DNA of 64,000 nucleotides from Psammoneis japonica (Eukaryota). The translations under genes and the position numbers were made by a program. The stretch is taken from positions 1-64,000 of the forward strand of contig QPGO01000271.1 in assembly GCA_008632985.1 (NCBI GenBank), given 5' to 3'. The notes below the pieces were generated by a model. The model saw only the letters and a program-made list of their open reading frames with translations. It ran no database searches and was not told where the DNA came from. This document shows, piece by piece, positions 3,711 to 54,411 of this stretch. Numbering within the stretch: position 1 is the first letter of the stretch; each line of letters opens with the position of its first letter.

Positions 3711-4865
3711 GATGACGTTCTGGTTTGCTGGTGGGGCTGCAGCACATCCATCCTTTTTGGCGCCAAATCGTTTTTTCCAGTCCACTTCGTCATCCCCCTC
3801 TGACCTTGTGGCTCTAAACCTGCTGCATCGCCCAATGTCCAAACAATCAGTCATGCAAATGAAAGCCCTGTCTCCGCTCCGGCAAATCTCACAAATTCGT
3901 TAACTTTGACGCGCCGTCGTCTCTCCACCCAACGCATTTCCTCTCTCCTGCTGTGAAAGTTCTCCCGCTCATCCTCCTCCTCTGCAATTAAATCCAGTGT
4001 CCATTCATTGACTGTCCTTGGAGACAACAGGAAGAACTCCATTTCCTCACAGAACCACAGTCTTTCAGGGTGGTCTTGCAAGATGTCACGCTGGAACCAC
4101 TTTGCCAGTTTCAATGCATTGCAAACAATGCCCTTTTTGTCCATCAACGGTCCACAAGTGCCTCCCCTTGGTGATGTTTCTCCCAACGGTCCGCAAGTGC
4201 CTGTCTCGTCCATTCCACAAGTCGGCAAGCTGATGCTCGACTTCTGTCTCAATGTCAAAACGTCTCCCCAGTCCATGACCAGTTTTGCATCATCAAACGC
4301 ACCCGCTGCAAATTCATCCCGCAGCTCACTCTCTCCAAGGAGGGCAGGAATGCACACACGAAGGCACCCAAAGTGCCCTTTGCACAGAGAGTTGGCTTGT
4401 CTGGCAATGGAGAGTTCCTCAAAGAAGTGATCAAGGTCAGGAGGGTGCTCGGTTCGGACACAAGATGTGGTGGCGGAATCACATGAAGGAGCATTGTTTG
4501 AGAATGTGCGCCAGTTTTCCCGCAAGTTGTCCGCCAGGTGAAAGTCGGCGGAATGACAAAGCAACCGATCAGTGTTGGTGGCTTTGTCAATGATGTGCAG
4601 GTGTGACAACTGAGAAGCAACTTCCTTGGTGGTGGCGGGCCGACACTTGGACAGGTCAAAGCAATTGCAGAGTGTGGACTTGTCCAGCCACGACATGTCA
4701 TCAGGGTTGCTGGGAGGAGACGCAACCGCAGGAAGATTTGCCGAGACAGATGGAGGAGAGGAGCGCATTTTGGACAAAGGACCTTTGGAGGTGGGAGCAG
4801 GATTTTGGTTTTCCATCATTTCTGAGAGTGACGGAAGTTTGGTGGTGAGGGTCCGGCGCGCCTCC

Positions 4866-5203
4866 GACGCGTTCCAGCCCCAGGTGGGAGCTCGCAGCAC
4901 TGACGTGTGACACAAATGATTTTTGTCGTCCGTTGCATGTTTCGCACGTGCATTTCCACGTGTGACATTTTAAAAAAAATGTCCAGAAGCACTGTTTTGC
5001 GAAGCCCCAGACGTTTTGTGTGACAAATTTGTGGAAACAACAATGCGCCAGTTGCGTTCTTCAATGTCTGAAGAATGCAACTGGCTGAGTAAAAAACGAT
5101 GCACTTCACATTTTAATTGCCGTGTGATTTTACTGCGGAGCTCGCACGCAGAATTCTGTGGGCCCAATGTCACACTGATTCCCACCTGCGCCTGGAACGC
5201 TTC
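4866..5203. mobile_element. MITE (GACGCGTTCCAG-TIR family), TSD CTCC
   Basis: Ends GACGCGTTCCAGCCCCAGGTGGGA / TCCCACCTGCGCCTGGAACGCTTC; CTCC at 4862-4865 and 5204-5207. Confidence 0.9.
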
Positions 5204-6413
5204 CTCCCCAGACAATGGCACATCACCAGACAATGAAGGAGGTGCTGGTTTTGAGCGAGATGCAGTCTTGGCCTTCTTGTCAGGGACGGTCAAGGAAGGC
5301 TCTGGTGAGGCGTGTGCAATCATGGAGTGTGAGAAGGGACATTGAGATGACAGATGCAGGCAGAAAGGCAAAAGGTGGGAGGTGGGCGGGTTGCTTGCCA
5401 TTGCACAAACAGGTGCCATCTTTGCGGATCCTCTTAATTTTGCATTTGGTTTTAGATTTGCAATGTTGTTTGTCATCATCTTCCAAGCAGTCAGCCCTCT
5501 GATTGCGCATTCTGCAACAAAGCATTGTGAGCTGCTTGCTGTGCCCAGGCCAGATGCCATTTTGCTCCTTGGGACAACGGTTTTCAAATTCATGATTCAA
5601 CATGGAATTGATTTTTTCTTCATGAGCCTCCTGGCATGCAAGGGAATCGCCTTGCATCATCACCGTGTTCTTGATGTTGCCGGTTGGGTCACCAAGGAAC
5701 CCCTTGATCTCGCCCACCTGGGAACCAGTGTCATCAGCATCGCATGCATCCAGAAAGCTGTTGACAAAGAGGCGCCATTCCTTTTGGGCATTGACATGAC
5801 AGAAAATCTTCAGGGACCAACAGTCCATGTCCTTGGGTTTGCACTGAACGTAACACATGACGATGTCAGTGACAAAATGGGCACTGTGGAGGTCTTGGGC
5901 TTGATCGTTGATCAAACTTTGGAGACTTTTGCGCAACATAAAAATCAGAAACAAGGCTGACCACATGCGGGATCATTTGGGTCGTCTCCGGCAATGATCG
6001 TGTGAACAAATTCTGCCATCGCCTGGATGTCACGGTGGAGAAGCATGCGGTTCTGCTGTTCCTTTTCTGTCTCTCCGGACATTTTGGAGAAATGAAGAGC
6101 CTCCTTGAGATTTTTGCATCGTGGGACACACTCACCTTTCACTCAGCGGGATTTCTTGATGGACCAACCTCAAGTCAGGAATCACAACAGCACACCCTCT
6201 CGTCAAATGCATTTTGGGGAGAGGGTGTGCTGCTGTGAAATGGGCAGAGCATTGCACATGCAGAAAATGTGCCAAAATGCAGGCAGGGAGCTGCTGATTG
6301 GAAAGCTGGTGGGTGAAGGTGAAAACAAGGTAATTTTTTGGTGTCATTGACAGAACACAAAAGAGGAGGGGAGGAGAGAGAGAGGAGAAGAGAGGAAAAG
6401 GGAGATGAAGGGA

Positions 6414-6809
6414 GATGCGTTCCAGCCCCAGGTGGGAGCTCGCAGCACTGACGTGTGACAACAATGATTTTTGTCATCCGTCGCATGTTTCGCGTGCAGA
6501 TTTCTACATGTGACATTTAAAAAAAATTGTCCAGACTTGCTGTTTTGCGAAGCCCCAGACGTTTTGTGCAACAAATTTACAGAAACAACAATGAGCCAGT
6601 TGCATTCTTCAATGTCTGAAGAATGCAACTGGCTGAGTAAAAAATGATGCACTTCAATCATGTGCGAGTTTGTGCATTCGCAAAATTGCCTCATTTTCTG
6701 TTGGCGATCATTGACATTTTAATTGCCGCACAATTTTGCTGCGGAGCTCGGACACAGAAGTCTACGGGCCCAATGTCACACGGATTCCCACCCACGTCTG
6801 GAACGCGTT
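6414..6809. mobile_element. MITE, same family, TSD GGGA
   Basis: GATGCGTTCCAGCCCCAGGTGGGA...TCCCACCCACGTCTGGAACGCGTT; GGGA on both sides; interior aligns with 4866-5203. Confidence 0.9.
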
Positions 6810-8615
6810 GGGAGAAAGAGTTCAGTGCTGCAAGTCCAAGTGTGTGTTGTCATGCTTTGTTTTGATGCAAAAAATCTGGTTCTTTGGTGTGCCTCCAACG
6901 AACATGAAAAAGACACAAACTTTGTAGAAACAAAGCAACAATGAATGCAAAACAGTTTTCCACATTCAAGTGAGACAACGCAGTGCAGAAAACCATCACA
7001 AAAAACCACCATGATGGCGCAGAAGCAGCCGATGCTTGACCATTGCCGTCAAACCTTCTCTTGCAAACAACGCCAATGCAGGTCAACTCCACATTTTACT
7101 CTGACATTGTGTGTCCAAGAAAACAGAGGTGAGAAAGTCCAAAAAAGGATGAAAACTCCTTCTGTGTTTTTGCTGCTGTTGGCATTGCTTGGTTCTCACA
7201 CGGCTGGCAAGGAGTTGGGCCACGGTGATGCCATCGATGGATGTTGGGAACACAAAATCGACTTTGCTGAAGAGCACACAACAAATCGCAGCTGCGAGCA
7301 GGGGCTGCAATGCAACAATGCCATCAATGAAACTTGGGAAAGGGGAGGGGCTGTGGAAATGCTGAGGGGCTGCGTGATGCCGTTGGGCCATGGTGTCACC
7401 CTTGGGATGCCAGTCGAAAGTCAAAACAGCAGTGAGAGATGGAAATGGATGCACCTGTCATGAGGGCATGTTTGCTTTTTGTGTTGACAGAAGGCAAGTT
7501 TATGGTCACTCTTGCTGGTGATTGCTGGTCTGGCTGAATGGCACGACAGCAGCGCAGTGTTGATTTCCCAGTTGCAGATGCATCTGGTGCTCACATGAAT
7601 GTCTGCCTCCACGTCCTTTGCAGTCTTGACGTTGGCAGGCACGGCAAGTCCTCCTGCCCCTTCTCTCTTTGTCAGGGCCACGCAAGACTGTGGCGGAGCC
7701 AATGAAAAGCACTGTCAAAGTCAACGTTTCCATGAATGTGCAACAAATTCGTCAAAACAAAACTTGTTTTTTGATGACAAAACACATGTTGAAAGTCTTT
7801 GGCAAACTTAAATCAAAACAAAAAGGTGACAACTGCACACACAAAAAGAAAATGACAAATTCAACTTGACTCTTAAAATTGAAATTGAAGCTGAACAATG
7901 ACAACATGCTTTTGTGCAATTCATTGTTCCGAAATTTACAAAGGAAAGTGAGCAACACTGCATTGCCACCTCTGATGAAATGTGGAGGGTGAAGGATGGG
8001 ACAAATGGGTCATTGTGTCAAGTCTCAAAAGCAGCTCAAGAGCTTCAGCCAACAAGAATCGTTGGCTTTGTAATTCATCAAGTGAGTGAATGGCAAATGG
8101 CGTTGATTTGGCTGACAGCACAGCCAACATGCGGGTGCGCCTTGACAATCTGTTGCGCTGCATTCTGATGTTGTGGAATGAAAAGAATGACTTTGGTTCA
8201 CATTGATCCATCATGACAGAAGTGTGCAAGCTTTCCCTGGCCCTTTTGGAGCAATCGGGTGAGTGAAAGAGGAGCCACAGAAAGATGCGGACGATGCCAT
8301 TTTGATGCATGGTCATCACGTGGTGTTGTCGTGAGTCGCTGATGGGCGTGCCATGCTTTCTGTTTTTGTCACAGTGCACCTCATTTCTGCATTTCATTTC
8401 TCTGCTTAATTTTTACAAACATTTGCCAAATGTGTTTTGCGTCTGACTTCAGCTCTGCACTTCACCCCTGCTTCCCATTTCCCATTTCCTTTTCCCTTCT
8501 CAGCTTTGCTTTCCCTTTGGCCTTGCTGTTTTGCTTTTGCCCACTGCCCAAACCCCAACCCTGACCCTGAACAAAGGAAGCGCACAAGTCAAGATGAAAA
8601 GCAAAAGACATGACA

Positions 8616-31700: not shown

Positions 31701-34700
31701 CCACCGGTTCATCAAGCTCGGACAAGTCGTTGTGAACTTTTTGATGACGCTGAACGCACAGTTCTTTGCATTTTCTTTCAGAGTCTTCATGTGCTGCTGG
31801 CATGCTTCAAAATCCACCAGCTTCATCAGGTCTCCATCCACTGCACTCTTGCCAGTCTCCAACCCAGGGTTGGAGATGCCCTTTAGAAAGTCAGAGACCT
31901 TCTTGGTCTCAGCCACCGGCTCATCAAGCTCAGACAAGTTGTTGTGAGCCTTTTGATGGGGCTGAGTGCACTGGTCGAAAGTAAATCGACCCCGTCCGGT
32001 GCACTTCGCAGCAGCGATCTGTGCATGAGCACGGTTCTTTTGGGTGGTGGCAGCAGCCAATCCTTCCGCCTGCCTCTTGAGTGCAAAGAAAGCAGTGCGA
32101 CCATCGCGGCTGCAATTGGAAGGTTGGACAAAAGCCCATCTGGGCCCCCCATCACCAACTTCTTCAAGAGATCATGAAGGCATTGCCTGTCCTGCGTGCA
32201 CTGAGCTCCTGCAAGTCAAGCAGCAGCAATGATGTCCTCGTCAATGGCAGTGTGGGTGGCAGCCAACATTTCGCCGGTGACGTCTTCATGCTCCCCAACC
32301 AGGTAGATGAGGGGCACACTGGTGACAGCACTGTGGTGGTGACGCAGTTCGGTCTCCAGCAACTCTTGGAAGGCAGGCCAGTCACACAGATTCTTGAGCT
32401 CCATGGCCGTTTTGGTGGCCGATTCGTCATCCGAGTCTGCTGACTTGAATTGCTCCAGTTCCGTGAGACGTGCCGTCCATGTTCCAACAATGTCGCCAGC
32501 AAAGAGAGCAGCGGACGGCTCTTGGTTTTGGGCTCTGCGTCAGTCAATCCATGTGCGCAGTGCCTTGAGCTTGTGATTCGCCAGGCATGGGAAGCGGACT
32601 TGGGGGTTGGCGGCGGCATCCACGATGCCCTCAGTCATGTCAGTGATCTCTGTCAAAGGGAGCTGTGTGGGTGCATGTCTGTGCATTGCATCCACAATGT
32701 GCAAGGCAAATGGCAAAGGCTGCGGCAGCGGCCATGGTGCACCAGCAGTTGTTTGCGTTTTGATGCGTGAGCATCCACTTGTGTGAGTGGAGGAAAGTGA
32801 GAAAAATGTGTGGTTCTCATGCCGATTTGGTGGTTTCTACTTGGCGAACCCGCGAGCGGGCGGCGTCACTCCCAAGTGACAATTGGCAACAGACATGTGT
32901 CCACATGTGCAGTGTTGTGTGTGATCAAATGACAGATCTCAACACATGAATTGCCATGTCATCTAAATCACGAATGTTCACATGCCTTGCCCAACATGTT
33001 CCATCCATGTGATCAAACATTCCGCACACCAACGTCATGTCTGACGGATCTGCAGTGTGCGACTGTCACACACATGTTTGTGATCATGTGTCATTTGCAC
33101 GTCAATCGCACCACAGTCGTGGATGCGCACAAAGGACAGAACGATCACACAGAGTTGATCGGATGTCGAGAATTGCAAATACGATCGATTGACGATGTTG
33201 ACATCTTGCGTGTCAACAGCAATCGCATCCGGACAATCTGTTGTCACGAATGTGTTCTCCGAAAGGCCTTTTGTCTGTAGAAGCAGTGCAGAAGCTTTAG
33301 GCCATTGAGAACTCGTTTGGAGAAACCAAAAATCACAGAGCAAAATTTGACCTTATAATTTCCACTTTTCGCACACTATTCTACTTTCGTTTACACTCGT
33401 TCTTCGAGCATAGTGCATTGTGTATAATGCAGCATGCGACTGTTACATGCATGTTTATGATCATATGTTATTCACATGTCAATCGCACCACAGTCGTGGA
33501 TGCGTACAAAGGACAGAACGATCACACAGAGTTGATCGGATGTCGAGAATTGCAAATACGATCGATTGACGATGTTGACATCTTACGTGTCAACAGCAAT
33601 CGTATCCGGACAATCTGTTGTCACGAATATATTCTCCGAAAGGCCTTTTGTCTGTAGAAGCAGTGCAGAAGCTTTAGGCCATTGAGAACTCGTTCGGAGA
33701 AACCAAAAATCACAGAGCAAAATTTGACCTTATAATTTCCACTTTTCGTACACTATTCTACTTTCGTTTGCACTCGTTCTTCGAGCACAGTGCATTGTGT
33801 CTGTGGTAAAAAGCACGAAAAATGAAAATTTTAACTAATGTGCCTTTGCAAATTCTTCTATGAACAGGAACGAATCGCATCAGTTCTGCTGGAATCGATT
33901 TCCGAGCGGAAGAAGCTCAAGCCGAGCAGTGCCTCAAGATGGAACGCTGTTTTTCGTCTACCAGACAAGAGGATTCGCTCCAGTGCAGTCTGTTCCAAGT
34001 GTCTCAGGACCAAGGACTCTACAAGAACACAGCATTGTCGAAACATCCACACCAAGTCATGGTTGGGTAGAATTTCAAGTCTTGAGTCGATCAGATCCGA
34101 GAAATACGTCTACCATGCAAGGAGAGACTATTGGAGAGTTTTTTGAGACCGAATCGATGATCCTCGAGTCCAAGGAGCAAGAGGGAATCGTTGGAAAGTA
34201 CCTCAAGCGTCTCATAACTCATGTCCTCCAAGAACTGCACTTCAGAATCAGAGTTGTTATTTTCGAGATGATCTGAAGAAACCCAAGGCTCTCAGCAGCA
34301 AGAGAGTGCCTGTTCGACCCAAGAGGTCAATGATGAGAGTCTGTGCGACCCTCAGATCGATTCTAAGTCGAATCTAGCGGGAAACCGAGCGCTGATTTAT
34401 CAGCCATCACTCGCACCGCAAGGATGGCAGCATCAGCCTGCTGTCCAAAACATTGGGTTGTTGGATCATGCCCTTGACGAGCTGATTGAGGTTTGAGTCG
34501 TCTAGAGGTCGGCGAGGACGTCTGTGACAAAAAAAACATGTCAATTCAGGCTCTGATAGCGCAGTTGATTCCACAATCAAAAAGGTTCCAATTTTGGTTC
34601 CAAAAATGGTCTCCCACATGGTGCCACCACAATCCAAAGTGAATGCAAGGTCTCATCTTTGAAAAAAGAACACCTGCATCACGGATTGAAGCTGTTCTAA

Positions 34701-37589
34701 AAATGAACTAGCAAAAGAGTGCAAGGGTGACTCTGAAAGAGACCCAAAAATGCGCCGTTCAAATGGCAATCGCACGCGGTCGCGTCGCGACAACGAAAAT
34801 GCCGCTCGCAAAAAAAGAGATGAACGTCATGATTGATCAGGTGGTTCAAAAAACACTCAAAGCAAGTTCCTTGAACAAAGAAAAAGAGCACAAGGGCAAA
34901 GAATCAGATTCTGACACCCTCAGTGAAGAAAAATGCCAAATTGATTGGATGATCCAGACTGAATCCGAAGAACAATTTTGGTCTGTTCACGAATTGCATG
35001 CTTTGCTGGATGTTAGGAAGCCTGGAAAAAAGGCAGAAATAATTCACACTGGTCCAGGAGTCATCATTTACATGATTGCTTCCTTGGGAAAGGAGAGAAA
35101 AAAAAAAGCATCTACGTGTTCCTGTCGATGACGGAACATCGTCAACCACAATTTTGCGCAAATTCGTGCGAAAGTTGAGAACACAAGAATCCGCCACCAA
35201 AAACTTGGGAAACCAAGGGTGAGCTCTTTACGACTGACAGTAAACACCGAATTCAGTTCTCACTGTGCGAAATTTAAGGCATGCTGATGTTCAAACAGCA
35301 CATGTTGAAAACACCAAATTTTCTTCAGGTTCAAATGATGTGATCATGGGACGCGACTTAATGTCCAGTCCTGCAAGTCACACTGGACTACGCAAATGAA
35401 GAAATCTAATGGGAAGAAGCAATTGCCTTATGAAGAATGTTCATACACTCTTCGATGCCGATGTTTTCAAGCTGAAAACCGATCACATTGAAAAATGTGA
35501 CGCCGTGAATGGAGTCAACAACGGAACCAATGGTCCTCGACTCACATCATCACGCCATCGATCTTAATCAAGTGACAACTACGGCGATGCATCTAACCCA
35601 AATGAACACAACCAACTCAATCTTCTTCTCAAGAGGTTGAAATCGTTTTGAAAAGTTCCTCAGACGAATGTGTGGGAAGCATCAGTGGATCTCATCGTGG
35701 AAAATCTGACGCGATTCCACGACGCGTGAGAACCTTCTCCTATCACAGTCTTTGGAGGCGTCCAATCAAAAGGAGTTTGACCCATTGTGAAAGATTGAAG
35801 TCTTAAGAATGAAATTGCTCTGAACAAGTCGCTCTGAGACTCATTGTCCAAAGAAAACAGGTCGAGTTCGACCGCACCCGACACTCAGAAGCTCAGTGTA
35901 AGGTTCGTGCAGGTGGTGTATCCTTTACCCAATATTCAGGAAATGCCATTGAAGCAAGAACGTTTCATGTGTGTAATCTATTTGATTCAAACATGGAATG
36001 CCACCATGTCAAATAAAAAAAGCACACGTCGTGCTCACACGAAAATCATGCCGTGGGGAGAAAATGAGCACTGTGGACTTCCAATGAGAATCTATAGAGC
36101 CCCAGACATTTTTATACAACACTTGAGTGAACTCATAACAGGTTTGAAGTTGTCAGAACGACCACATGTGATCGTTTGTGCCTGACAAAAGTAACTTCAA
36201 AATGTCACCTGTGCAAGTAACAGCTCAACACGGCATTCAAACGACTAGAACAGTCGCTTAGAAGGTTAACAACAAAAGTCCTTCACTATTTAACTTGAAA
36301 TAAACTATCAAGACTTCCATACGTAACGACATGCATTCGATTACAAAGAAAATGGAGGCGATTCAAGCCATCGCAACATGAGAAAAACGTAAAGAACACT
36401 ACGACATCTCGTCGTTATACGTTACTACTATCGAGACATGTAGTCTCAACGATCTCCTGTACAATACTAGCCAGATTCACCTCAATAAAGGTCAAACGGC
36501 AAAAGTACAAGTACGGAACGAAAAGTCTCCGAAAATATGGAGCGTGTCAAATCAAAAACTACATTGTTATCATACACGTATTTCAATGTTATACGTTACA
36601 ACGGAAAAAAGAACTTCTGTCCATAGTGAAAACACTTAAAAAATTCCGAAATATTATATTGTTTGGCCAACAGATTTATGTATATATACGGATCATAAGA
36701 CACAACGGACAAAGTCATACGTTGACGACTTACAATAGAAAACTTCAGTCCCCAATTAAAATACAGCGAGGACAAGGCGAACATCGTCGCGATAGACGCG
36801 ATCAGCCGACTTACTATAGAAAATTGAATCCTACGACAATGTCCTACCGTTAAAACGGGTTAAAGACATTCCCTCCAAATTGTCGGACGCGACATATCAT
36901 ACGAACACTTTTCGTGGAGGCGAGCGAGATCGAAAAATGCTCATGTCACAAGGATAAAATCGCCTTTTTAAAGGACGATTTAGGAAAAAACAGTGACAGA
37001 TTGGTGTACATTATACGTATCCACTTCACACTGGCAAAAGACAATCTCACAACACCCGTACGGTTGTATTGTACAATGTACGAGGCAAGACATTAAAATA
37101 TACATCATGTCGACACACGAGATGTGCCAAAGATCTAGAAAAAGAAAAGAAAAATGGACATTTATCCACTTAGTGCACGAAACCAGTGCCTTCGGAATGA
37201 CAAAATAACACCGGTATGTCAGAAAGAAACATCTAAATAACGATTAAAATCCAACTGATAGATGGTTGAAGTACAAAAAAAAAATCCATAATGGAATTCA
37301 TAACCATCACAGGATTGATTGTCAAGACGAAATGGTCATAACATCTTTGACCATCGTTTATTATTACTTATGAAACGTGGTAGTGCAGCAGAGCAATATA
37401 AGACTGACTAAATAAAAAGGAAACCATGGAAAACAGACAGACGTGATGGTTGCTTTTGAGAAAAAAGCAAAAAACCATCACGCGCACCGCAAACCGCAGC
37501 AGCACCATGGAGGTGCCGCTGTGTTCATAAAAAGCGACCGTCACTGGGACAACATCACACGGTTAAAAGCATTGACATAAGGTAATGCG

Positions 37590-38020
37590 AATCTGTCGAG
37601 TGTTCTGGTGGTGTTTGTTTTTTGGCATCATCTAAAATTCTTGTTGCAACACTCTGTTTAGATGGACAGCATGTTTGTGGTTTCTCTGCGACTCGGCTAC
37701 ATTCATGAATCGACCCTCACTGGAACAATGTCACATGATGCAGAGCATGGACATGACTCAATGTGAATGTGACGAGTGTGATGGTTGTGTTTGTTTTTTG
37801 ATGTCGTCTAAAATTCTTGTTGCTGCACTCTGTTTGGATGATTTTGTGTGGTTTCTACGCAACTCGGCCATGCTCCGTATTGATGAAGCGACCATCACTG
37901 GGTCAATGTCACATGATTAACATCATGGATGTGAGGTAACATGAATGCATCGAGTGTGATGGTTGTGTTTCTTTTTGGTGTCATCTAAAATTTTTGTTGT
38001 CACACACTCTGTTCAGATGG
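37590..38020 (+). repeat. Three ~177-bp subterminal tandem repeats in the Sola-like element
   Basis: GAGTGT..TGGT.GTGTTT..TCTAAAATT.TTGTTG..CACTCTGTT at ~37598, ~37773, ~37952. Confidence 0.8.
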
Positions 38021-38051
38021 ACAGCGCCGCCGACGTGATCGCTCCAACCAA

Positions 38052-40346
38052 TCAACCGTGCCAGAAGGGACCATGTGGACGCGCCAAAATTTCCTCAATG
38101 GTAGAACAGTTAAGAGTGGAGTGAAGGGTTTGCATGTGCTGTTGTACTTCAGCAGCTGCAGTTGGATGCAATGCCGCAATCGGAAGCATTTGTTGTTGTA
38201 GACCATGCGGGTTGACGAAATTCGGGTTGACGAAATGCGGCGGCGGCGGGGCGGCAGCAGCAGCTGGTGCTGCAGGTTGCTGGGCTGTAAAATGTGGTTG
38301 AGTGGCAGGAACAGCTGGGGGTTGAGTGGACGCAGCAGCAGCAGCGGCAGTGGGAGATTGTCTTGATCTCGAATTGGAAACAGTCTTTTTGCTCCTTTTG
38401 GCCTTGTCTGCTTTTGACTTGTTGTGTCTGTCGATCATTGCTTGTGGTGGCATGGGGCAAATCTCATCCTGACACTCCACTGGAACATGCTTCCTCCATT
38501 TTGTCCCAAGCTCTATTTGTTTAATGTCGGGAATTCCAGGAAATGGAATGACCTGGGGTGCCGCCTGCAAGAGCTCCATTCTGTTGCTGTTGGTCCCAGG
38601 CTTTTTGAATTCTCTTGTGGCAGTCTCACCTTGATCCTCCTCCCGGCAAGACACCTGAATTTTCATGTCAGTTGGCGAGGCTTTTGTCACAGAAAAGATG
38701 TGGCTCTTGTGGACGGTGCTGGGGGCGAAGCGTCGATACAATGAATCGAGTTTCTTATCCCAGTCTTGGAAGTCTTCCTCGTCCACAGCGGTTGCGGTAG
38801 TGTTCTCGTTTTCATTCAACAATTCCATCATTTGCTTGAAGGTGTGGACATTGGAGTCTCTGCACAGCTTTTTCAAGATGTCACACATCCGGTCGCAAGG
38901 GTTCTTTGTGTGCCCGACTACAAGAAACACAAACTGTACGGTTTGACAGAATCCCCGCTCAACCAAGTAGAGGGCCAGCCGAAGAACCATCCTGTTCTTG
39001 TTCTGACCCGAGCAGTTGTCCACAACAATGGCAAGCTTTACTCGAATTTGCTTTGCTGTTCCATCATCATTGACCTCCAAATGCCCTTTGTCCTTTAGAC
39101 ACTTCACAACGAGTGATGCGACGTTGTTGCCTCCTTTTTTACCTTGGCCCTCGTGGTGCACGTATGCTTGGAGCAAGTTGTCTTTCATGTTGACAAGTCC
39201 AAAACAATTTACATTCAATGGAGAAAAGCAGTGAGTGTCACCTGATTGCTCATTGCCAAGGTGTGGAAGGTCCATGTTTTCGGAACAGTCGCCAACAAGC
39301 ACGTCAATAAGTTCCTGTTCAAGGCATTCGGCAGTGAGAGAATTGAACAGTTCTCTCTGAGCAACAGCCTGTTGGATGTGGATTTGAGCTTTTGCTGCTG
39401 CCTCCTCTCTCCTCAGACATCCATTCACTGGAGTGTCACTGCTGTTCAAAGGACGAGGCGACGAGAAGCAACGAAAAGCATGCGACAGCACAAAGCAGTC
39501 AGAACAAACATCCTCCCTAGCTTTAGGAAGAACCAGCTTTGGGTGGCTTCTCTTCCAGAAAGAACGGAAAGTTTCAAAAACAACTGTCTTTTGCGGCTCC
39601 ACGTCTTCTGCTGCTTGTGTCAATTCAATCGCCCCTTTGTCATTCTTGAGCTTGGCTTTCCATCCTCGTTCGCCAACCCATTTGCCGTACAGTCGGCGAG
39701 CCGTCCAATGGGTTGGGAGCTCCAGCAGCTCCTCATCATCATCCCTGGTCCCTGTTCCGACTTCTAGTCGAACAAACCTTGTGGCTCGAGGAGAAGCAAG
39801 TTCCATCATGTCTTTGAAAAAAACATGCAACGACGTTTCCACATCTACCTTCATTCTTGCATTTGATGGTTTACCCTTGTTGCCATGCGACGTCACCATG
39901 TTTGATTGAATCGCCTCTTTCACCCTTCTGTCAGCTTTTTGACGTACATTCACAATGTGCTTGAAAGCATTTTTGCATGTCAACACGTCGGAGCCCGGTG
40001 GCTTGCCCGCAGCTGGAACGGGAAGAAATTTCGCGGACTGGCATGACCGACATTGTTGCAGGATGTAGCTCTCCCTGTCGTCTCTGCTCTTGTGTGCCAC
40101 CTCATCCAACATGAACTTTGCAATGCAGGGAAGCCACTCTGTTCGCGTCCGAAAAGCATGCAAACATTCGCACCTCGTTGGCCGCCCCCGAACATCCACA
40201 CACTTCGGGCTGTCAAACACATTTTGAAGAAATTCCTTGCACATCTCAAGAGCATCCTCACGTGAAGGGTGAGGCTTAACTCTGAGCTTTGCATGCAGGC
40301 TGCCAACTGAGTCAGACCGGTTGTTGCCGGCATCGTCGTCATCCAT
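38052..40346 (-). CDS. Sola-type DDD transposase, 764 aa, open but partly Tyr->Cys/His converted (probably inactive)
   Basis: DVCSDC, DCSENMDLP, DTHCFSPLNVNCFG, EGQGKKGGNNVAS, DNCSGQNKN, FLVVGHTKNPCDRM. Confidence 0.85.
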   Translation of the reverse strand: MDDDDAGNNRSDSVGSLHAKLRVKPHPSREDALEMCKEFLQNVFDSPKCVDVRGRPTRCECLHAFRTRTEWLPCIAKFMLDEVAHKSRDDRESYILQQCRSCQSAKFLPVPAAGKPPGSDVLTCKNAFKHIVNVRQKADRRVKEAIQSNMVTSHGNKGKPSNARMKVDVETSLHVFFKDMMELASPRATRFVRLEVGTGTRDDDEELLELPTHWTARRLYGKWVGERGWKAKLKNDKGAIELTQAAEDVEPQKTVVFETFRSFWKRSHPKLVLPKAREDVCSDCFVLSHAFRCFSSPRPLNSSDTPVNGCLRREEAAAKAQIHIQQAVAQRELFNSLTAECLEQELIDVLVGDCSENMDLPHLGNEQSGDTHCFSPLNVNCFGLVNMKDNLLQAYVHHEGQGKKGGNNVASLVVKCLKDKGHLEVNDDGTAKQIRVKLAIVVDNCSGQNKNRMVLRLALYLVERGFCQTVQFVFLVVGHTKNPCDRMCDILKKLCRDSNVHTFKQMMELLNENENTTATAVDEEDFQDWDKKLDSLYRRFAPSTVHKSHIFSVTKASPTDMKIQVSCREEDQGETATREFKKPGTNSNRMELLQAAPQVIPFPGIPDIKQIELGTKWRKHVPVECQDEICPMPPQAMIDRHNKSKADKAKRSKKTVSNSRSRQSPTAAAAAASTQPPAVPATQPHFTAQQPAAPAAAAAPPPPHFVNPNFVNPHGLQQQMLPIAALHPTAAAEVQQHMQTLHSTLNCSTIEEILARPHGPFWHG

Positions 40347-41989
40347 TGCGATTGTGGACGAAAGACAGTTGCTGCTGCAGGAAAATGGTGTGCCATTCTA
40401 TTTTCTGAAAAAAATAAAAATGGCTGCCAAAAGTGCACCAGCGGCAACAACAGCAGCTTCTTACGTGGCTGACAAAGTGCGTGGCATGCAATTTACGCGC
40501 ATTTTGAAGAGTGCGCGCATCCGGCATGCGATCCCATGGAAACCCCAAGATTGGTGCCATTTTTCAAGAAATCGGACCCACAAAATGACCGACACATCGT
40601 TTGAAAGCATTTTTGCTCTAGTTTTCACTGATGCCAAAAGCAAAAAACTCAATTTTTGGCCCAAAATTGGCAAATGGTGACCTTTCTATTTAGTCAGTCT
40701 CACATGGCACACAAAGCAAGCCCGCCAAACTACATGAAATCCACAAGCAAGCAAGTGAACGCCATAATTAAGAGCGTACATTAAGTGCTGGGCACGATGC
40801 TATGTACAATCGACATCAGGAAAAACACTTACTCCAGGACAATTAGTCCTTGTGTTCATATCAACAAGAACGTCAATGAGAATACTCGACGTAATACCAC
40901 ATATATACACATTAAGTGAGAAACAAACAATGTCACTCTCAAAAGACATTCGGAAATTGGAACGGCCCTATATTGCCTATACAAAACAACAACAGTCATT
41001 GCTAATGGCACAATACAGTGAAAGTGGAGACATTGTTGACACTGTCGATGTCCGTCGAACAATCCACTTACAAATGACTCTAATGTGCAATTAGGGAGGC
41101 GAATGCAGTATGCGACTGTTACACACATATTTATGATTATATATTATTTATATGTCAATCGTACCACAGTCGTGGATGCGTGCAAAGGACAGAACGATCA
41201 CACAGAGTTGATCGGATGTCGAGAATTGCAAATACGATCGATTGACGATGTTGACATCTTACGTGTCAATGGCAATCGTATCCGGACAATCTGTTGTCAC
41301 GAATATATTCTCCGAAAGGCCTTTTGTCTGTAGAAGCAGTGCAGAAGCTTTAGGCCATTGAGAACTCGTTCGGAGAAACCAAAAATCACAGAGCAAAATT
41401 TGACCTTATAATTTCCACTTTTCGTGCACTATTCTACTTTCGTTTACACTCGTTCTTCGAGCATAGTGCAGATCACAGCTCTGGTCTGAAGAGCACATTG
41501 TTCACATTCATGAACATTGATGTGTGCAAAGGACTCGGTGATCACGCGAGCAACCATGGGACCAACATGGCGCTCACCACAAAAATTGATCGATCGCAAC
41601 AATGCCATCGTGCCGTTCGCGATGCCCATTCCAGGCGATGAACATCATGGTGCATTGGCTCTGACAAAGTGAACAAATGCTGCCATGACAGCCAAGAATT
41701 TGGTGCAAAACAAGACAGAGTGTTGAACAGCATCAGCAGGTTCTAGAATTGTGAGATGTCACACTGCCGGGGCCACCAAATGAGCGACAGTGGACCAATC
41801 GCCAACAGTGCACAAACTGCCTGTGTTCGTGACAGTGTGTCAGCATTTGTTCACTGGAGCAGGCCAAACAACTTGTGCACCCACACTGCAATGATTGCCA
41901 AGACAAGCTTTGCCTTTTGCTGTGGTCCACTGGCTCTGACAGACATTTGTGTGCATTTCAATTGTGACATTTTGAAAAAATTTGCAGGT

Positions 41990-51504: not shown

Positions 51505-53138
51505 ATGTGTTGGCAAGCCATTGCTCTTCACTGCACTTGCTGATAGAAGGAGCAACAATGAGTGGTGCCAACAGATGCTTTTAGACAGGTTGACACACCT
51601 TTTGCAGTGAGCTCATCAGAGCACAGAGAGAAGGCTTAAAAAATGTTTGCGAGCATTTCCTTTTTCCCAAGGTGTGTTGTCATTTCTCTTTGTCTTGCTT
51701 CCTGCATTTGTCTGGGTGAAGCTGGAGCACTTTGTTGGACAAGAAATAATTTGGCCAGTCATTGTGTCTGTCTGCAACAAACAACAATGAGTTTGAGCAT
51801 CCCAGTGCTTCAACGTTGTCTTCATTGCAGTTGTTGGGAACAAGGACAGAGAAACCACCCGTTGCCATTGCGTCTCTGCCAGCATGCCAAGATTTTGGGA
51901 TTGTCTGAGAATCTCTGCCACAACCAACAGTTGTTGTTTCAAGTTCCCAGTGCTCAACCACACCGTTGGAAGACTTGTCACGTGACGTCTTTGTCTGTTC
52001 CTTGCACGACTGTCCCACGGCAAGCGGCGCTGTTCCATCATCAGCCAACACAAAACCAAGGAGCACAAACGGGTGCCTTTTTTCTGACCAGTTCCCTCTT
52101 CATGCAAGACCCTGGGTGTGTCATGCCACAACCCATTGTTGTTGTGATTGGGGTGTCCATGCATTAAAATCCCTTTCTCTGGTGTGGCAAACTCCGAGTG
52201 AACAACTGCTTCATCATGCTTGGCAGACAGTTCCTCCGTTGGCAACAACAAAAACTCAAGCAGGGTAGAGTCCAATTCTGCAGTTTCTGGGATGACACGG
52301 ATCTTGTTGCTGCCTGAACACTGATGGCAAGTTTGGGTGGTTCTGTTCACAACAAACAAGGGGTGCATCAATTTTTCTTCAGAGGAATTTTCGCTTGCCT
52401 GACCAACCATGGGAGGGATGAGAAGGCTGTGTGCCTTCTCAAGAACTGCCACGTCATGCAAACGAACAATGAGTTGGTCCAAAAAATTGTCTGCACCCAA
52501 TGCAACCTGGCAAGTTTTTGCCGGAAGCTTGGCCCAGAACTTCAGGTGACTCTCTCCAATCATGGCAGAGAAATTTGCAATCTGGCCACAAAGGAAAGAG
52601 TCAACAACAAGATGCAGCACAGAATGGAGCTTGGCGGTCCAGAACAAACAAGTGTTCCTTGCACGACAAAGGCATGCTTTTATCTTGAACAAGAGCAGGA
52701 CAACGCGGCACTTGAAATCCACCTTTCCTGGTTTTCCACAGAGTTCTTTTCCGCAGAGACAAAATGAATGGAAAAGCAGCACATGATGCAACAAGTCCAA
52801 CAATTCATCAACTCCACAATCAACGGATTTTTCCACTGTCGTTTCTTCATCTGCTGTCTTCACAAAAGATTCAGGAAGTTTGTTTTCCATTTCCACACAG
52901 ATGACAGTGCTTGGCAATTTTGACTTGGTGAGAAGAAAGTGCCGTCTGTCCGCACACCTTGCAAAGTTGTCCCGATCACCCACCAAATCAACAACAAGAC
53001 CATGTGGTCCGGGTGTTGACAATTGATCAGGTGAAGTCTCAACAGCCCGTTGTTTCTGTCTCAATGATTTGGTTTCATCCCATGCAATCTTCTGGCACAA
53101 CAAAAAGCAATCGTTGCCCAGTTGCTTGGAAAATGGTT

Positions 53139-53527
53139 GACGCGTTCCAGCCCCAGGTGGGACTCCGTGTGACATTGGGCCCGTAGAATTCTGCATGCGA
53201 GCTCCGCAGCACAAGAATTTAATTGATGGACACATTCATCTTCAACATCAAATGAGCTGCCAAGTTTGTGGTGCAATTGTGCCTCTTGCTGCTCAACGTT
53301 TTTGCAAATGAACCTGCCCTGCATGATTCTCAAGACATTGCAGAATCGTGCTGCAACAAAAAATGTCAAAAGTTTTTGGACGGATCGCTCAACAAGTGCA
53401 CCGTAAAATGACACAAAATGTCAAAAAATCACGTAGAATTCTACGTGCGCGACATGCGACGAGATTCAAAAAACTGTCGATGTCACAGTTCAGCAGTGCG
53501 AGGTCCCACCCAGACCTGGAACGCGTC
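53139..53527. mobile_element. MITE (GACGCGTTCCAG family), TSD GGTT
   Basis: GACGCGTTCCAGCCCCAGGTGGGA...TCCCACCCAGACCTGGAACGCGTC; GGTT on both sides. Confidence 0.92.
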
Positions 53528-54411
53528 GGTTCCCAAAATTCAGAAAGGCCGTGACGATGCATCTGTTGCATCACACAGTTTTGGTGATGGAGATCGGATG
53601 GGTCGCAGGTGACATCAGACCATGTCTCTTTAGGAAGTGCAACAAGCACATTCTCATCAACCAGGCTTGTGTTTGTTTTGCCAGTTTGTTCATTGGATGG
53701 TTCAACTGGATCAGTGCCCTCATTGTTGGGTTCACTTTCTGATGATTTGGTCAATTGTTCATCTTGTTGCTTCTTTCCTTTAAAGCCATCAGCCGTCTTT
53801 TTCTTTTTGCTGTCAAAGGATGGATCGCACCTTTTTTCCAGCAGTTTTCTGCCAGCATGTGTGTGGCCAATGATTGCAAGTGCAAGAAGCTTGCCCATCT
53901 TCTTGTCACACGCAAGTTGACTGAGTGTGGAAAGTCCCCCGTTAACTCGAATTCGCGGACAGTCACATCTCTGACCTGGACAACAATGGGATGTGCAGAA
54001 TGACTCGGATGCAATCCGGTTGCATTCCTCTTTTGGTTTGGCAGACATCTCTCCTGTGATTGCCTCCATCATTTGAGGGACAATGCCCGCCTCCAATGCA
54101 TGCATTGTGCCAGCAATGGTCATGCCAAATGCACCACGCGCCCATGTCAAGTGGAAAGCAAGCATTGTCCACAGCGTGCTGTCCAAACACTTTTCTCAAA
54201 ATTTTGGAGCATGCAGTCATTCAGCAAATGAGGGAGGAAGCTGGCTCAGTCCCAGCCTTTGTTTTGATGTCGTTGTGCGATGCTTCCGGGAAATGCTTTT
54301 GACACACTGGCGCCAATGGCTGTTGTCATCCTCTGGAGCCAGACCCAATGCAGCAACAACGAGCAACTCTGTGAAAGCTTGGTCAAAGAATTGGCAGACA
54401 TGGAGGGGATC

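What the first reader, a model, noticed from the sequence alone, without database searches (positions are those of the whole stretch)
37396..40705. Structurally complete Sola-like transposon, half-converted; TSD ATAT vs ACAT
TIRs and a stop-free 764-aa ORF are intact, but only a few Tyr remain and several motif tyrosines read C/H. A DNA transposon has no RNA intermediate, so the mutator must act on DNA. The right TSD shows TA->CA; the empty site restores Gypsy EQYG, which fixes ATAT as ancestral.
Basis: partly seen in the sequence, partly recalled or inferred. Interest (0 to 1): 0.7.

Follow-up and report, generated by a model that had tools for sequence, protein, structure and literature searches.

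The report
TA-mutated Sola transposon in a diatom
A cut-and-paste jumping gene in a diatom-like genome has had about 60% of its T-A steps rewritten to C-A or T-G, some of them provably after it landed, which shows that a TA-specific mutation process, so far reported in one unrelated alga, works directly on chromosomal DNA and cripples transposons.

Summary
Observation confirmed, with corrections. Window 37400-40701 is a 3,302-bp Sola1-type (not Sola2) DDD transposon, inserted at ATAT in a decayed LTR element. Five full copies in the genome differ almost only at TA steps: this copy has 73 of 124 inferred TA sites converted (36 CA, 37 TG); background substitution is 19 of 13,820. At 12 Tyr-majority columns the window reads C/H at 8; homologues do so in 8 of 680 residues. 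Empty sister sites read ATAT in 13 of 19, and 9 of 22 junction T|A steps in 11 clean insertions are converted, so mutation acts on DNA after insertion. Corrections: the right terminal base is itself converted; the process cannot create stop codons, so the open frame shows nothing; all five copies have lost near-invariant tyrosines; the 'EQYG' frame stops two codons later in 18 of 19 sisters. New details: TAY is preferred about twofold over TAR, element ends are spared, hits are not strand-clustered. The signature matches a 2026 Bigelowiella preprint; four searches found no diatom report. This scan noted the same process many times elsewhere in this genome. The enzyme is unknown; a TadA/ADAT-type DNA deaminase is my best guess.

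The parts
37396..37399 (.). Left copy of the 4-bp target-site duplication, ATAT, unconverted; its last T and the element's first A form an insertion-created T|A step, still intact
   Evidence: a single 4-mer at the empty site in 19 of 19 sister loci
37400..37427 (.). Left TIR (3' end relative to the transposase), beginning AAG; its two TA steps (37409, 37413) are kept in all five copies
37532..38018 (.). Three diverged subterminal repeats of about 177 bp, downstream of the ORF
   Evidence: family D1
38052..40346 (-). 764-aa Sola1-type transposase (Pfam DUF7869, E 3e-19) with triad D353/D443/D485 kept; Tyr-majority columns 268, 293, 354, 372, 373, 397, 495, 501 read C/H; low-complexity Ala/Pro/Gln tail
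39018..39020 (-). Second catalytic Asp (D443) in the motif DNCSGQNKN, matching the Sola1 profile consensus
40347..40673 (-). 5' non-coding end; less converted than the interior in all five copies
40674..40701 (.). Right TIR; terminal base converted (ends CTC, related copies mostly CTT); inner TA steps at 40687 and 40691 kept in all five copies
40702..40705 (.). Right TSD copy, ACAT (TA>CA relative to the left copy and to most sister empty sites)
40701..40718 (+). Five of five TA steps across the right junction converted, all to CA on the + strand (40701, 40703, 40710, 40712, 40717)
33426..41470 (+). Host: decayed LTR retroelement (LTRs 33426-33794 and 41102-41470; RNase H remnant near 36300-36850), a multi-copy family; a further LTR copy at 33051-33417

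Best explanation
A young Sola1-type cut-and-paste transposon family spread to at least six sites from nearly identical donors (shown). In place on the chromosome, each copy has since been hit by a mutator that turns A into G when the A follows T, on either strand, so TA becomes TG or CA (shown). It prefers TAC/TAT about twofold over TAA/TAG, touches AA, CA and GA about 100-fold less, spares the outer 350 bp or so of the element, and leaves no same-strand runs overall, which points to many separate small hits rather than one processive pass (shown as statistics; the reading is inferred). Tyr codons all begin with TA, so they become Cys or His, and near-invariant tyrosines of the catalytic core are lost in every copy found; the family is probably dead or dying although frames and DDD triads survive (loss shown, inactivity inferred). 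The most likely chemistry is enzymatic deamination of DNA adenine to hypoxanthine, fixed at replication or repair, by a TadA/ADAT2-type enzyme aimed at repeat chromatin, i.e. a genome defence of opposite chemistry to fungal RIP (inferred; no enzyme identified). Confidence is about 0.95 for post-insertion DNA-level TpA hypermutation and about 0.55 for the deaminase chemistry.
For: Spectrum: TA>TG 321 of 1,240 strand-sites; AA>AG 7 of 2,905; CA>CG 6 of 2,675; GA>GG 3 of 2,080; a second Sola family (7 copies) gives 629 of 1,792 against 16 of 3,521 for AA. Background outside TA and CG sites: 19 of 13,820. Direction: homologues have Tyr at 372, 373, 397 in 56, 60, 59 of 60, and all five copies have C or H there, differing among themselves. 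After insertion: 11 of 15 Sola copies have a clean TSD; every mismatch between their TSD copies is at a TA step, and 9 of 22 junction T|A steps are converted, 6 of them on the host-side base (counted). Host LTR pair: 15 of 15 mismatched columns in 369 are TA-type. Both strands: 36 CA and 37 TG in the window copy. Mostly independent: where two copies are both converted, they agree in direction at 242 of 429 sites (56%). Not peculiar to this assembly: contigs of public run X1 differ from the window at 111 places, 107 of them transitions, and the rows shown largely match sister states. Silicon-transporter genes keep TA o/e 0.45-0.54 against 0.00-0.15 in the old repeat blocks of the window. The same signature was measured de novo in Bigelowiella (bioRxiv 10.64898/2026.01.13.699255). 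TadA-like genes exist in this genome.
Against: No enzyme or intermediate is shown; the five deaminase-domain loci look like ordinary TadA/ADAT and dCMP-deaminase genes. The lack of same-strand clustering (148 of 305 neighbours in Sola, 226 of 459 within 15 bp in the LTR family) is not what a processive single-strand deaminase would leave. Most internal conversions cannot be dated to after the last jump, and a few are shared: at 40347 and 40525 the five full copies agree while the deleted copy keeps TA, so some conversion predates copying. Site-to-site variation is far larger than independence predicts (20 sites converted in all five copies and 23 in none, against 3.1 and 2.4 expected) and is only partly explained by context and position. 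Run X1 may be the sample behind the assembly, so it is not independent biology. The host lineage is inferred from silicon-transporter genes only.
Confidence: 0.6

Rival explanations
1. Error-prone DNA synthesis: a translesion polymerase (Pol eta or iota type), recruited during repair or replication of methylated repeat chromatin, puts G opposite T at TA steps. The mutagenesis is then a by-product, not a dedicated defence.
For: Explains both strands, the lack of same-strand runs and the weak tail at AA/CA/GA. TA loss and CG loss co-vary along the LTR element (Spearman 0.65, p 0.017, 13 bins), and CG decay in the Sola copies is raised (26 of 695), in line with DNMT5 CG methylation of diatom TEs (PMC9998398, passages).
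Against: TA:AA ratio is about 100:1 and 80:1, whereas Pol eta prefers TA over AA only a few-fold (recalled). Transversions and indels are not raised. TA loss and CG loss do not co-vary across 20 copies (rho 0.11, p 0.65).
Confidence: 0.2
2. A modified base at TpA (for example a methylated or oxidised A or T laid on repeats) decays or mispairs, as 5mC does at CpG.
For: TpA is palindromic like CpG; the context is strict and the direction is random between neighbours.
Against: I know of no TpA-directed mark (recalled: symmetric eukaryotic 6mA lies at ApT). ApT is not depleted in the window (o/e 0.64-1.23 per kb). TA loss (52% of site-copies) is far above CG loss (3.7%).
Confidence: 0.15
3. RNA editing (ADAR/ADAT type) of transcripts, fixed by reverse transcription, with the Sola carried as cargo of the LTR element.
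For: The Sola lies inside an LTR element. ADAR favours U before the edited A (preprint text).
Against: Both strands are converted equally in one copy. The two TSD copies and the two LTRs, identical at insertion, differ at TA steps. None of 19 sister loci inspected carries the Sola at this site, and the other Sola copies have different flanks.
Confidence: 0.03
4. Sequencing or assembly artefact.
For: Some copies carry isolated indels that could be consensus errors.
Against: Strict TA context, sparing of silicon-transporter genes, and the same variants in separately built contigs of run X1, 115 of 538 of them at least 99% alike to the window.
Confidence: 0.02

Closest known systems
TpA hypermutation of integrated NCLDV and virophage DNA in Bigelowiella natans (Mettrop et al., bioRxiv 10.64898/2026.01.13.699255)
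   Same: A:T>G:C transitions restricted to TpA, giving TpG/CpA, on nuclear DNA, concentrated in foreign sequence; the authors also found DDE and RT domains enriched among TpA-poor coding sequences and proposed ADAT2.
   Different: There a rhizarian, measured de novo in two viral regions; transposons were only suggested as targets. The text holds no 'diatom' or 'target site'. Here a diatom-like host, multi-copy DNA transposons and LTR elements, 22-89% conversion per copy, TSD/junction dating, a TAY preference and end-sparing. Whether the enzymes are homologous is untested.
Sola1 DNA transposons
   Same: 4-bp AWWT-type TSD (called a Sola1 hallmark in PMC3845634), short TIRs, DDD RNase H-fold transposase, second-Asp motif matching the Sola1 profile.
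   Different: AAG...CTT termini; 2 of 11 clean TSDs are not AWWT (ACCT, AAGT). AWWT also occurs with Sola2, so the TSD alone does not decide. No tree with reference Sola1 proteins could be built.
Repeat-induced point mutation (RIP) of ascomycetes
   Same: Repeat-focused, dinucleotide-specific transitions on both strands that inactivate transposons.
   Different: RIP is C:G>T:A, makes TpA and makes stop codons; this process destroys TpA and cannot make stops. Dependence on homology pairing or on the sexual cycle is untested here.
ADAR/APOBEC editing of retroelements
   Same: Context-specific transitions concentrated in mobile elements.
   Different: Those edits are strand-polar and arise on an RNA or cDNA intermediate (recalled); here both strands and host-side TSD bases are hit.

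Membership tests
Sola1 transposons | 4-bp TSD | tested here: met
   Single 4-mer at the empty site in 19 of 19 sister loci; 11 of 15 related copies have a clean 4-bp duplication once TA conversions are allowed. The other four: one poly-T site, one with two extra A, one with an adjacent deletion of about 48 bp, one off by a base.
Sola1 transposons | AWWT target preference | tested here: met
   9 of 11 AWWT, 11 of 11 A..T; not exclusive to Sola1.
Sola1 transposons | DDD triad in an RNase H-like fold | tested here: met
   D353, D443, D485 found in 60, 60 and 55 of 60 homologues and in all five copies; model pLDDT 90.5; best matches are integrases and Mos1/Metnase (Z 10.2, 9.7, 9.6; rmsd 3.4-4.4; 133-169 aligned).
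Sola1 transposons | Sola1 sequence motif at the second Asp | tested here: met
   Consensus letters of the published Sola1 HMM at positions 86-94 read D-n-c-a-g-q-N-k-n (PMC5751038 supplement, part 59 of 94); the window has DNCSGQNKN. Compared by eye; the HMM was not run.
Sola1 transposons | Grouping with reference Sola1 transposases in a tree | not testable with these tools
   No reference Sola1 proteins were available to the tools.
Sola2 transposons | Sola2 motifs at the second and third Asp (SDG..xYKN; HGK..CDG) | tested here: not met
   Published Sola2 alignment (PMC3627910 file S10, part 1 of 2) against the window's DNCSGQNKN and GHTKNPCDR, by eye.
Bigelowiella-type TpA hypermutation | A:T>G:C transitions nearly confined to TpA, both strands | tested here: met
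Bigelowiella-type TpA hypermutation | Confined to foreign or repeated DNA, host genes spared | tested here: inconclusive
   Six silicon-transporter loci keep TA o/e 0.45-0.54; one gene family only, no genome-wide test.
Bigelowiella-type TpA hypermutation | Ongoing, roughly 1000-fold raised de novo rate, active in only some lines | not testable with these tools
   Needs mutation-accumulation lines.
Bigelowiella-type TpA hypermutation | Same enzyme (ADAT2 candidate) | not testable with these tools
   TadA/ADAT-like genes are present, as in most genomes (12 of 14 controls).
Fungal RIP | C:G>T:A transitions that enrich TpA | tested here: not met
   The direction is the reverse, fixed by homologue tyrosines and junction steps.
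Retroelement editing by ADAR/APOBEC | Strand-polar changes made on an RNA or cDNA intermediate | tested here: not met
   36 CA against 37 TG; TSD and LTR-pair mismatches.
Gypsy-type LTR element (host) | LTR pair with RNase H followed by integrase | tested here: inconclusive
   LTR pair and RT_RNaseH found (E 2e-7 in sister copies); no integrase hit in 6 frames of one sister copy. Likeness to Gypsy integrase motifs is recalled only.

The most novel reading that the evidence does not exclude
Diatoms have an undescribed transposon-directed genome defence, a 'reverse RIP', in which a TadA/ADAT2-derived enzyme deaminates adenine in chromosomal DNA at TAY, on both strands, across repeat chromatin, fading towards element ends and reaching across insertion junctions. 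It erodes Tyr codons until no intact transposase remains, and it shares an origin with the Bigelowiella process, which would make it an ancient SAR-wide system and a natural double-stranded-DNA adenine editor.
Probability: 0.4. Interest if true: 0.9.

Novelty: new variant of a known kind. Interest (0 to 1): 0.6.

Why it matters
Natural, targeted adenine editing of chromosomal DNA is barely documented; the one direct precedent I found is a 2026 preprint on viral inserts in a rhizarian alga. A cut-and-paste element is a clean reporter: its AWWT target and A...T ends create two new TA steps on insertion, so their conversion dates the mutation and places it on DNA. This makes the question testable in a genetically tractable group (insert a reporter, knock out deaminases). 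It also warns annotators: such elements keep long open frames and catalytic triads while losing tyrosines, so they look intact, and their divergence overstates their age.

Tried and rejected
Sola2 assignment: rejected on motifs. A GAG-type terminus: rejected; 11 of 15 copies end AAG...CTT at both ends, and the G/C termini are TA conversions. Processive same-strand clusters: looked for, not found; the five-site run at the right junction is the only striking case and may be chance. A shared tree among copies: a first count gave excess agreement in direction, but 9 sites had been picked up only through the two extra copies; without them agreement is 242 of 429, and the 20 CA/TG split sites fit no single tree. 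Element-specific targeting of the Sola (59%) against its left flank (6 of 68 sites): not supported, because that flank segment is refractory in sister copies too, and the host's 34.7-36.0 kb part is 39 of 60 converted. Pfam integrase in the host element: no hit. Sequence search of solved structures with the alignment: 0 hits; Foldseek gave only weak RNase H-fold hits. A specialised mutator gene: 5 deaminase-domain loci, none unusual; only one Pfam family was searched. No RNA holder listed. Literature: searches found no diatom report of this signature; the library lacks most subscription papers. The original Sola paper was not held. A citation for the TadA 'YAC' preference was sought and not found, so it stays recalled. 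Supplement searches in PMC3845634 and PMC3985635 gave no Sola alignment. The preprint's supplements were not seen and may bear on context preference.
Full report
Observation. The element spans 37400-40701 (3,302 bp), with 28-bp imperfect TIRs, ATAT on the left and ACAT on the right. A 764-aa ORF runs from 40346 to 38052 on the minus strand and holds 5 Tyr. TA o/e is 0.22 in the element, about 0.6 in the adjoining flanks, and 0.00-0.15 in the rest of the window, where CA/TG is raised to 1.5-2.0.

Identity. The protein hits Pfam DUF7869 and has 100 listed homologues. Its model (pLDDT 90.5) matches DDE/D transposases and integrases (Z about 10). D353, D443 and D485 are conserved. The motif at D443 matches the consensus letters of the published Sola1 HMM (PMC5751038 supplement) and not the Sola2 alignment (PMC3627910 supplement); both were compared by eye. 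AWWT targets are called a Sola1 hallmark in PMC3845634 but also occur with Sola2. I file it as Sola1-type. The genome holds 24 silicon-transporter matches, and the only homologue with a species name is from a diatom (32% identity), so the host is diatom-like by inference.

Sister copies. The genome holds five full copies (96-97% alike, this one included), one internally deleted copy and one old copy at 83-89%. Across the five, 124 sites are inferred TA sites: 104 with TA kept in at least one copy, 20 split between CA and TG. Conversion per copy is 59% (window; 36 CA, 37 TG), 22%, 48%, 55% and 75%. Outside TA and CG sites there are 19 substitutions in 13,820 base-copies, 12 of them A>G/T>C. Majority-CG sites lose 26 of 695. 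By 5' base, A>G occurs at 321 of 1,240 TA, 7 of 2,905 AA, 6 of 2,675 CA and 3 of 2,080 GA strand-sites. Seven copies of a second Sola family, 52-89% converted, give the same picture.

Direction and consequence. At 12 Tyr-majority columns the window has C/H at 8, homologues at 8 of 680 residues. Positions 372, 373 and 397 are Tyr in 56, 60 and 59 of 60 homologues and C or H in all five copies, so the CA/TG splits there come from TA, not CG, and no copy found is intact. The open frame says nothing about activity, because this change cannot create a stop from a sense codon.

Timing and substrate. The host is a decayed LTR element at 33426-41470. Of 40 flank matches listed, I inspected 19 other loci: all are empty at this site, with ATAT in 13, ACAT in 3 and ATGT in 3. 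The EQYG frame stops two codons later in 18 of 19, so the sister DNA, not the peptide, fixes ATAT. Because targets read A..T and the elements begin with A and end with T, insertion creates two T|A steps. Among 15 Sola copies, 11 have a clean TSD (four dropped: poly-T site, two extra A, adjacent deletion, one-base offset). In these 11, every TSD mismatch is at a TA step, and 9 of 22 junction steps are converted, 6 on the host-side base; in 5 of those 6 the base had no TA context before insertion (counted). In the window, 40701 and 40703 are both converted. The host's two LTRs differ at 15 of 369 columns, all TA-type. With the even strand split, this excludes editing of an RNA intermediate, including carriage of the Sola inside the LTR element's transcript. 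Most internal changes cannot be dated to after the last jump; two sites suggest some conversion before copying.

Fine structure. TAC/TAT are hit about twice as often as TAA/TAG in both Sola families and 1.5-2 times as often in the LTR family. After stratifying by context, sites within 350 bp of the ends are 0.26 less converted than inner sites in both Sola families (permutation p 0.0002 each). This could reflect fading of the process at repeat borders, protection by bound protein, or selection on donor ends. Neighbouring conversions share a direction no more than chance (148 of 305; 226 of 459). Site heterogeneity exceeds independence (20 and 23 sites at the extremes against 3.1 and 2.4) and is not fully explained. 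TA and CG loss co-vary along the LTR element but not across copies.

Artefact check. Contigs of run X1 show 107 transitions among 111 differences, and the empty site (40 of 116 rows shown). X1 may be the assembly's own sample.

Mechanism. Shown: DNA-level, both-strand, TpA-specific A:T>G:C change after insertion. Inferred: deamination of adenine by a TadA/ADAT2-type enzyme, whose natural target A34 follows U33 and whose engineered forms favour TA(C) (both recalled; the citation search failed). The genome has ordinary-looking TadA/ADAT-like genes, which is no evidence by itself. Rivals are error-prone synthesis (the TA:AA ratio near 100 argues against it) and a labile modified base.

Prior knowledge. 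Mettrop et al. (bioRxiv 10.64898/2026.01.13.699255; parts 1-3 of 5 read plus a term search, supplements not seen) measured this signature in viral inserts of Bigelowiella and suggested transposons as further targets. Searches found no diatom report. Other papers were seen as passages or single supplement parts. This scan has noted the process many times in this genome, including a TSD case; these notes are unchecked and are not counted as support.

Verdict. The feature is real. The transposon is a new member of a known superfamily; the mutation process is a new variant (new lineage, new targets) of a phenomenon known from one preprint, with the mechanism open. This locus adds firm dating and substrate evidence. 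Interest 0.6.

Noticed in passing
L091 (G000:C107), Sola at 3845-7151: A second copy of this Sola family sits, inverted, in another copy of the same LTR family, about 200 bp past the site used in the window, with about 48 bp of host deleted at the junction.
   Followed up: partly
flanks of L003 and L004; window 53134-53530: Two further Sola copies lie in or next to copies of one other repeat family, within about 60 bp of the same position. Four of six insertions thus fall in two repeat families, a possible target preference.
   Followed up: no
window 36400-36900 and sister loci L032-L050: This segment of the LTR family is nearly refractory to TA conversion across copies (4-8%), against 31-59% in the segment before it at similar GC. 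Unexplained.
   Followed up: partly
L082-L090: Two more Sola families (about 2.7 kb, same AAG...CTT ends), heavily converted; frames up to 779 codons survive with 0-1.6% Tyr.
   Followed up: partly
window 33051-33794: An extra LTR copy lies in tandem directly before the host's left LTR; nearly all its differences are TA-type.
   Followed up: partly
L005: The most converted copy also holds most of the non-TA A>G/T>C changes, as if specificity relaxes near saturation.
   Followed up: partly
protein P0040: A homologue from an unnamed public source has only 1.3% Tyr and C/H at 3 Tyr-majority columns; possibly the same process in another organism.
   Followed up: no
L032-L050: The host LTR family is abundant (227 first-look candidates), yet no stop-free frame over 281 aa occurs in the 19 loci read; it may have spread as a non-autonomous element.
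   Followed up: partly
L088:994-4177 and L089:1019-5307: Other inverted-repeat elements enclose or abut these Sola copies, i.e. nested insertions.
   Followed up: no
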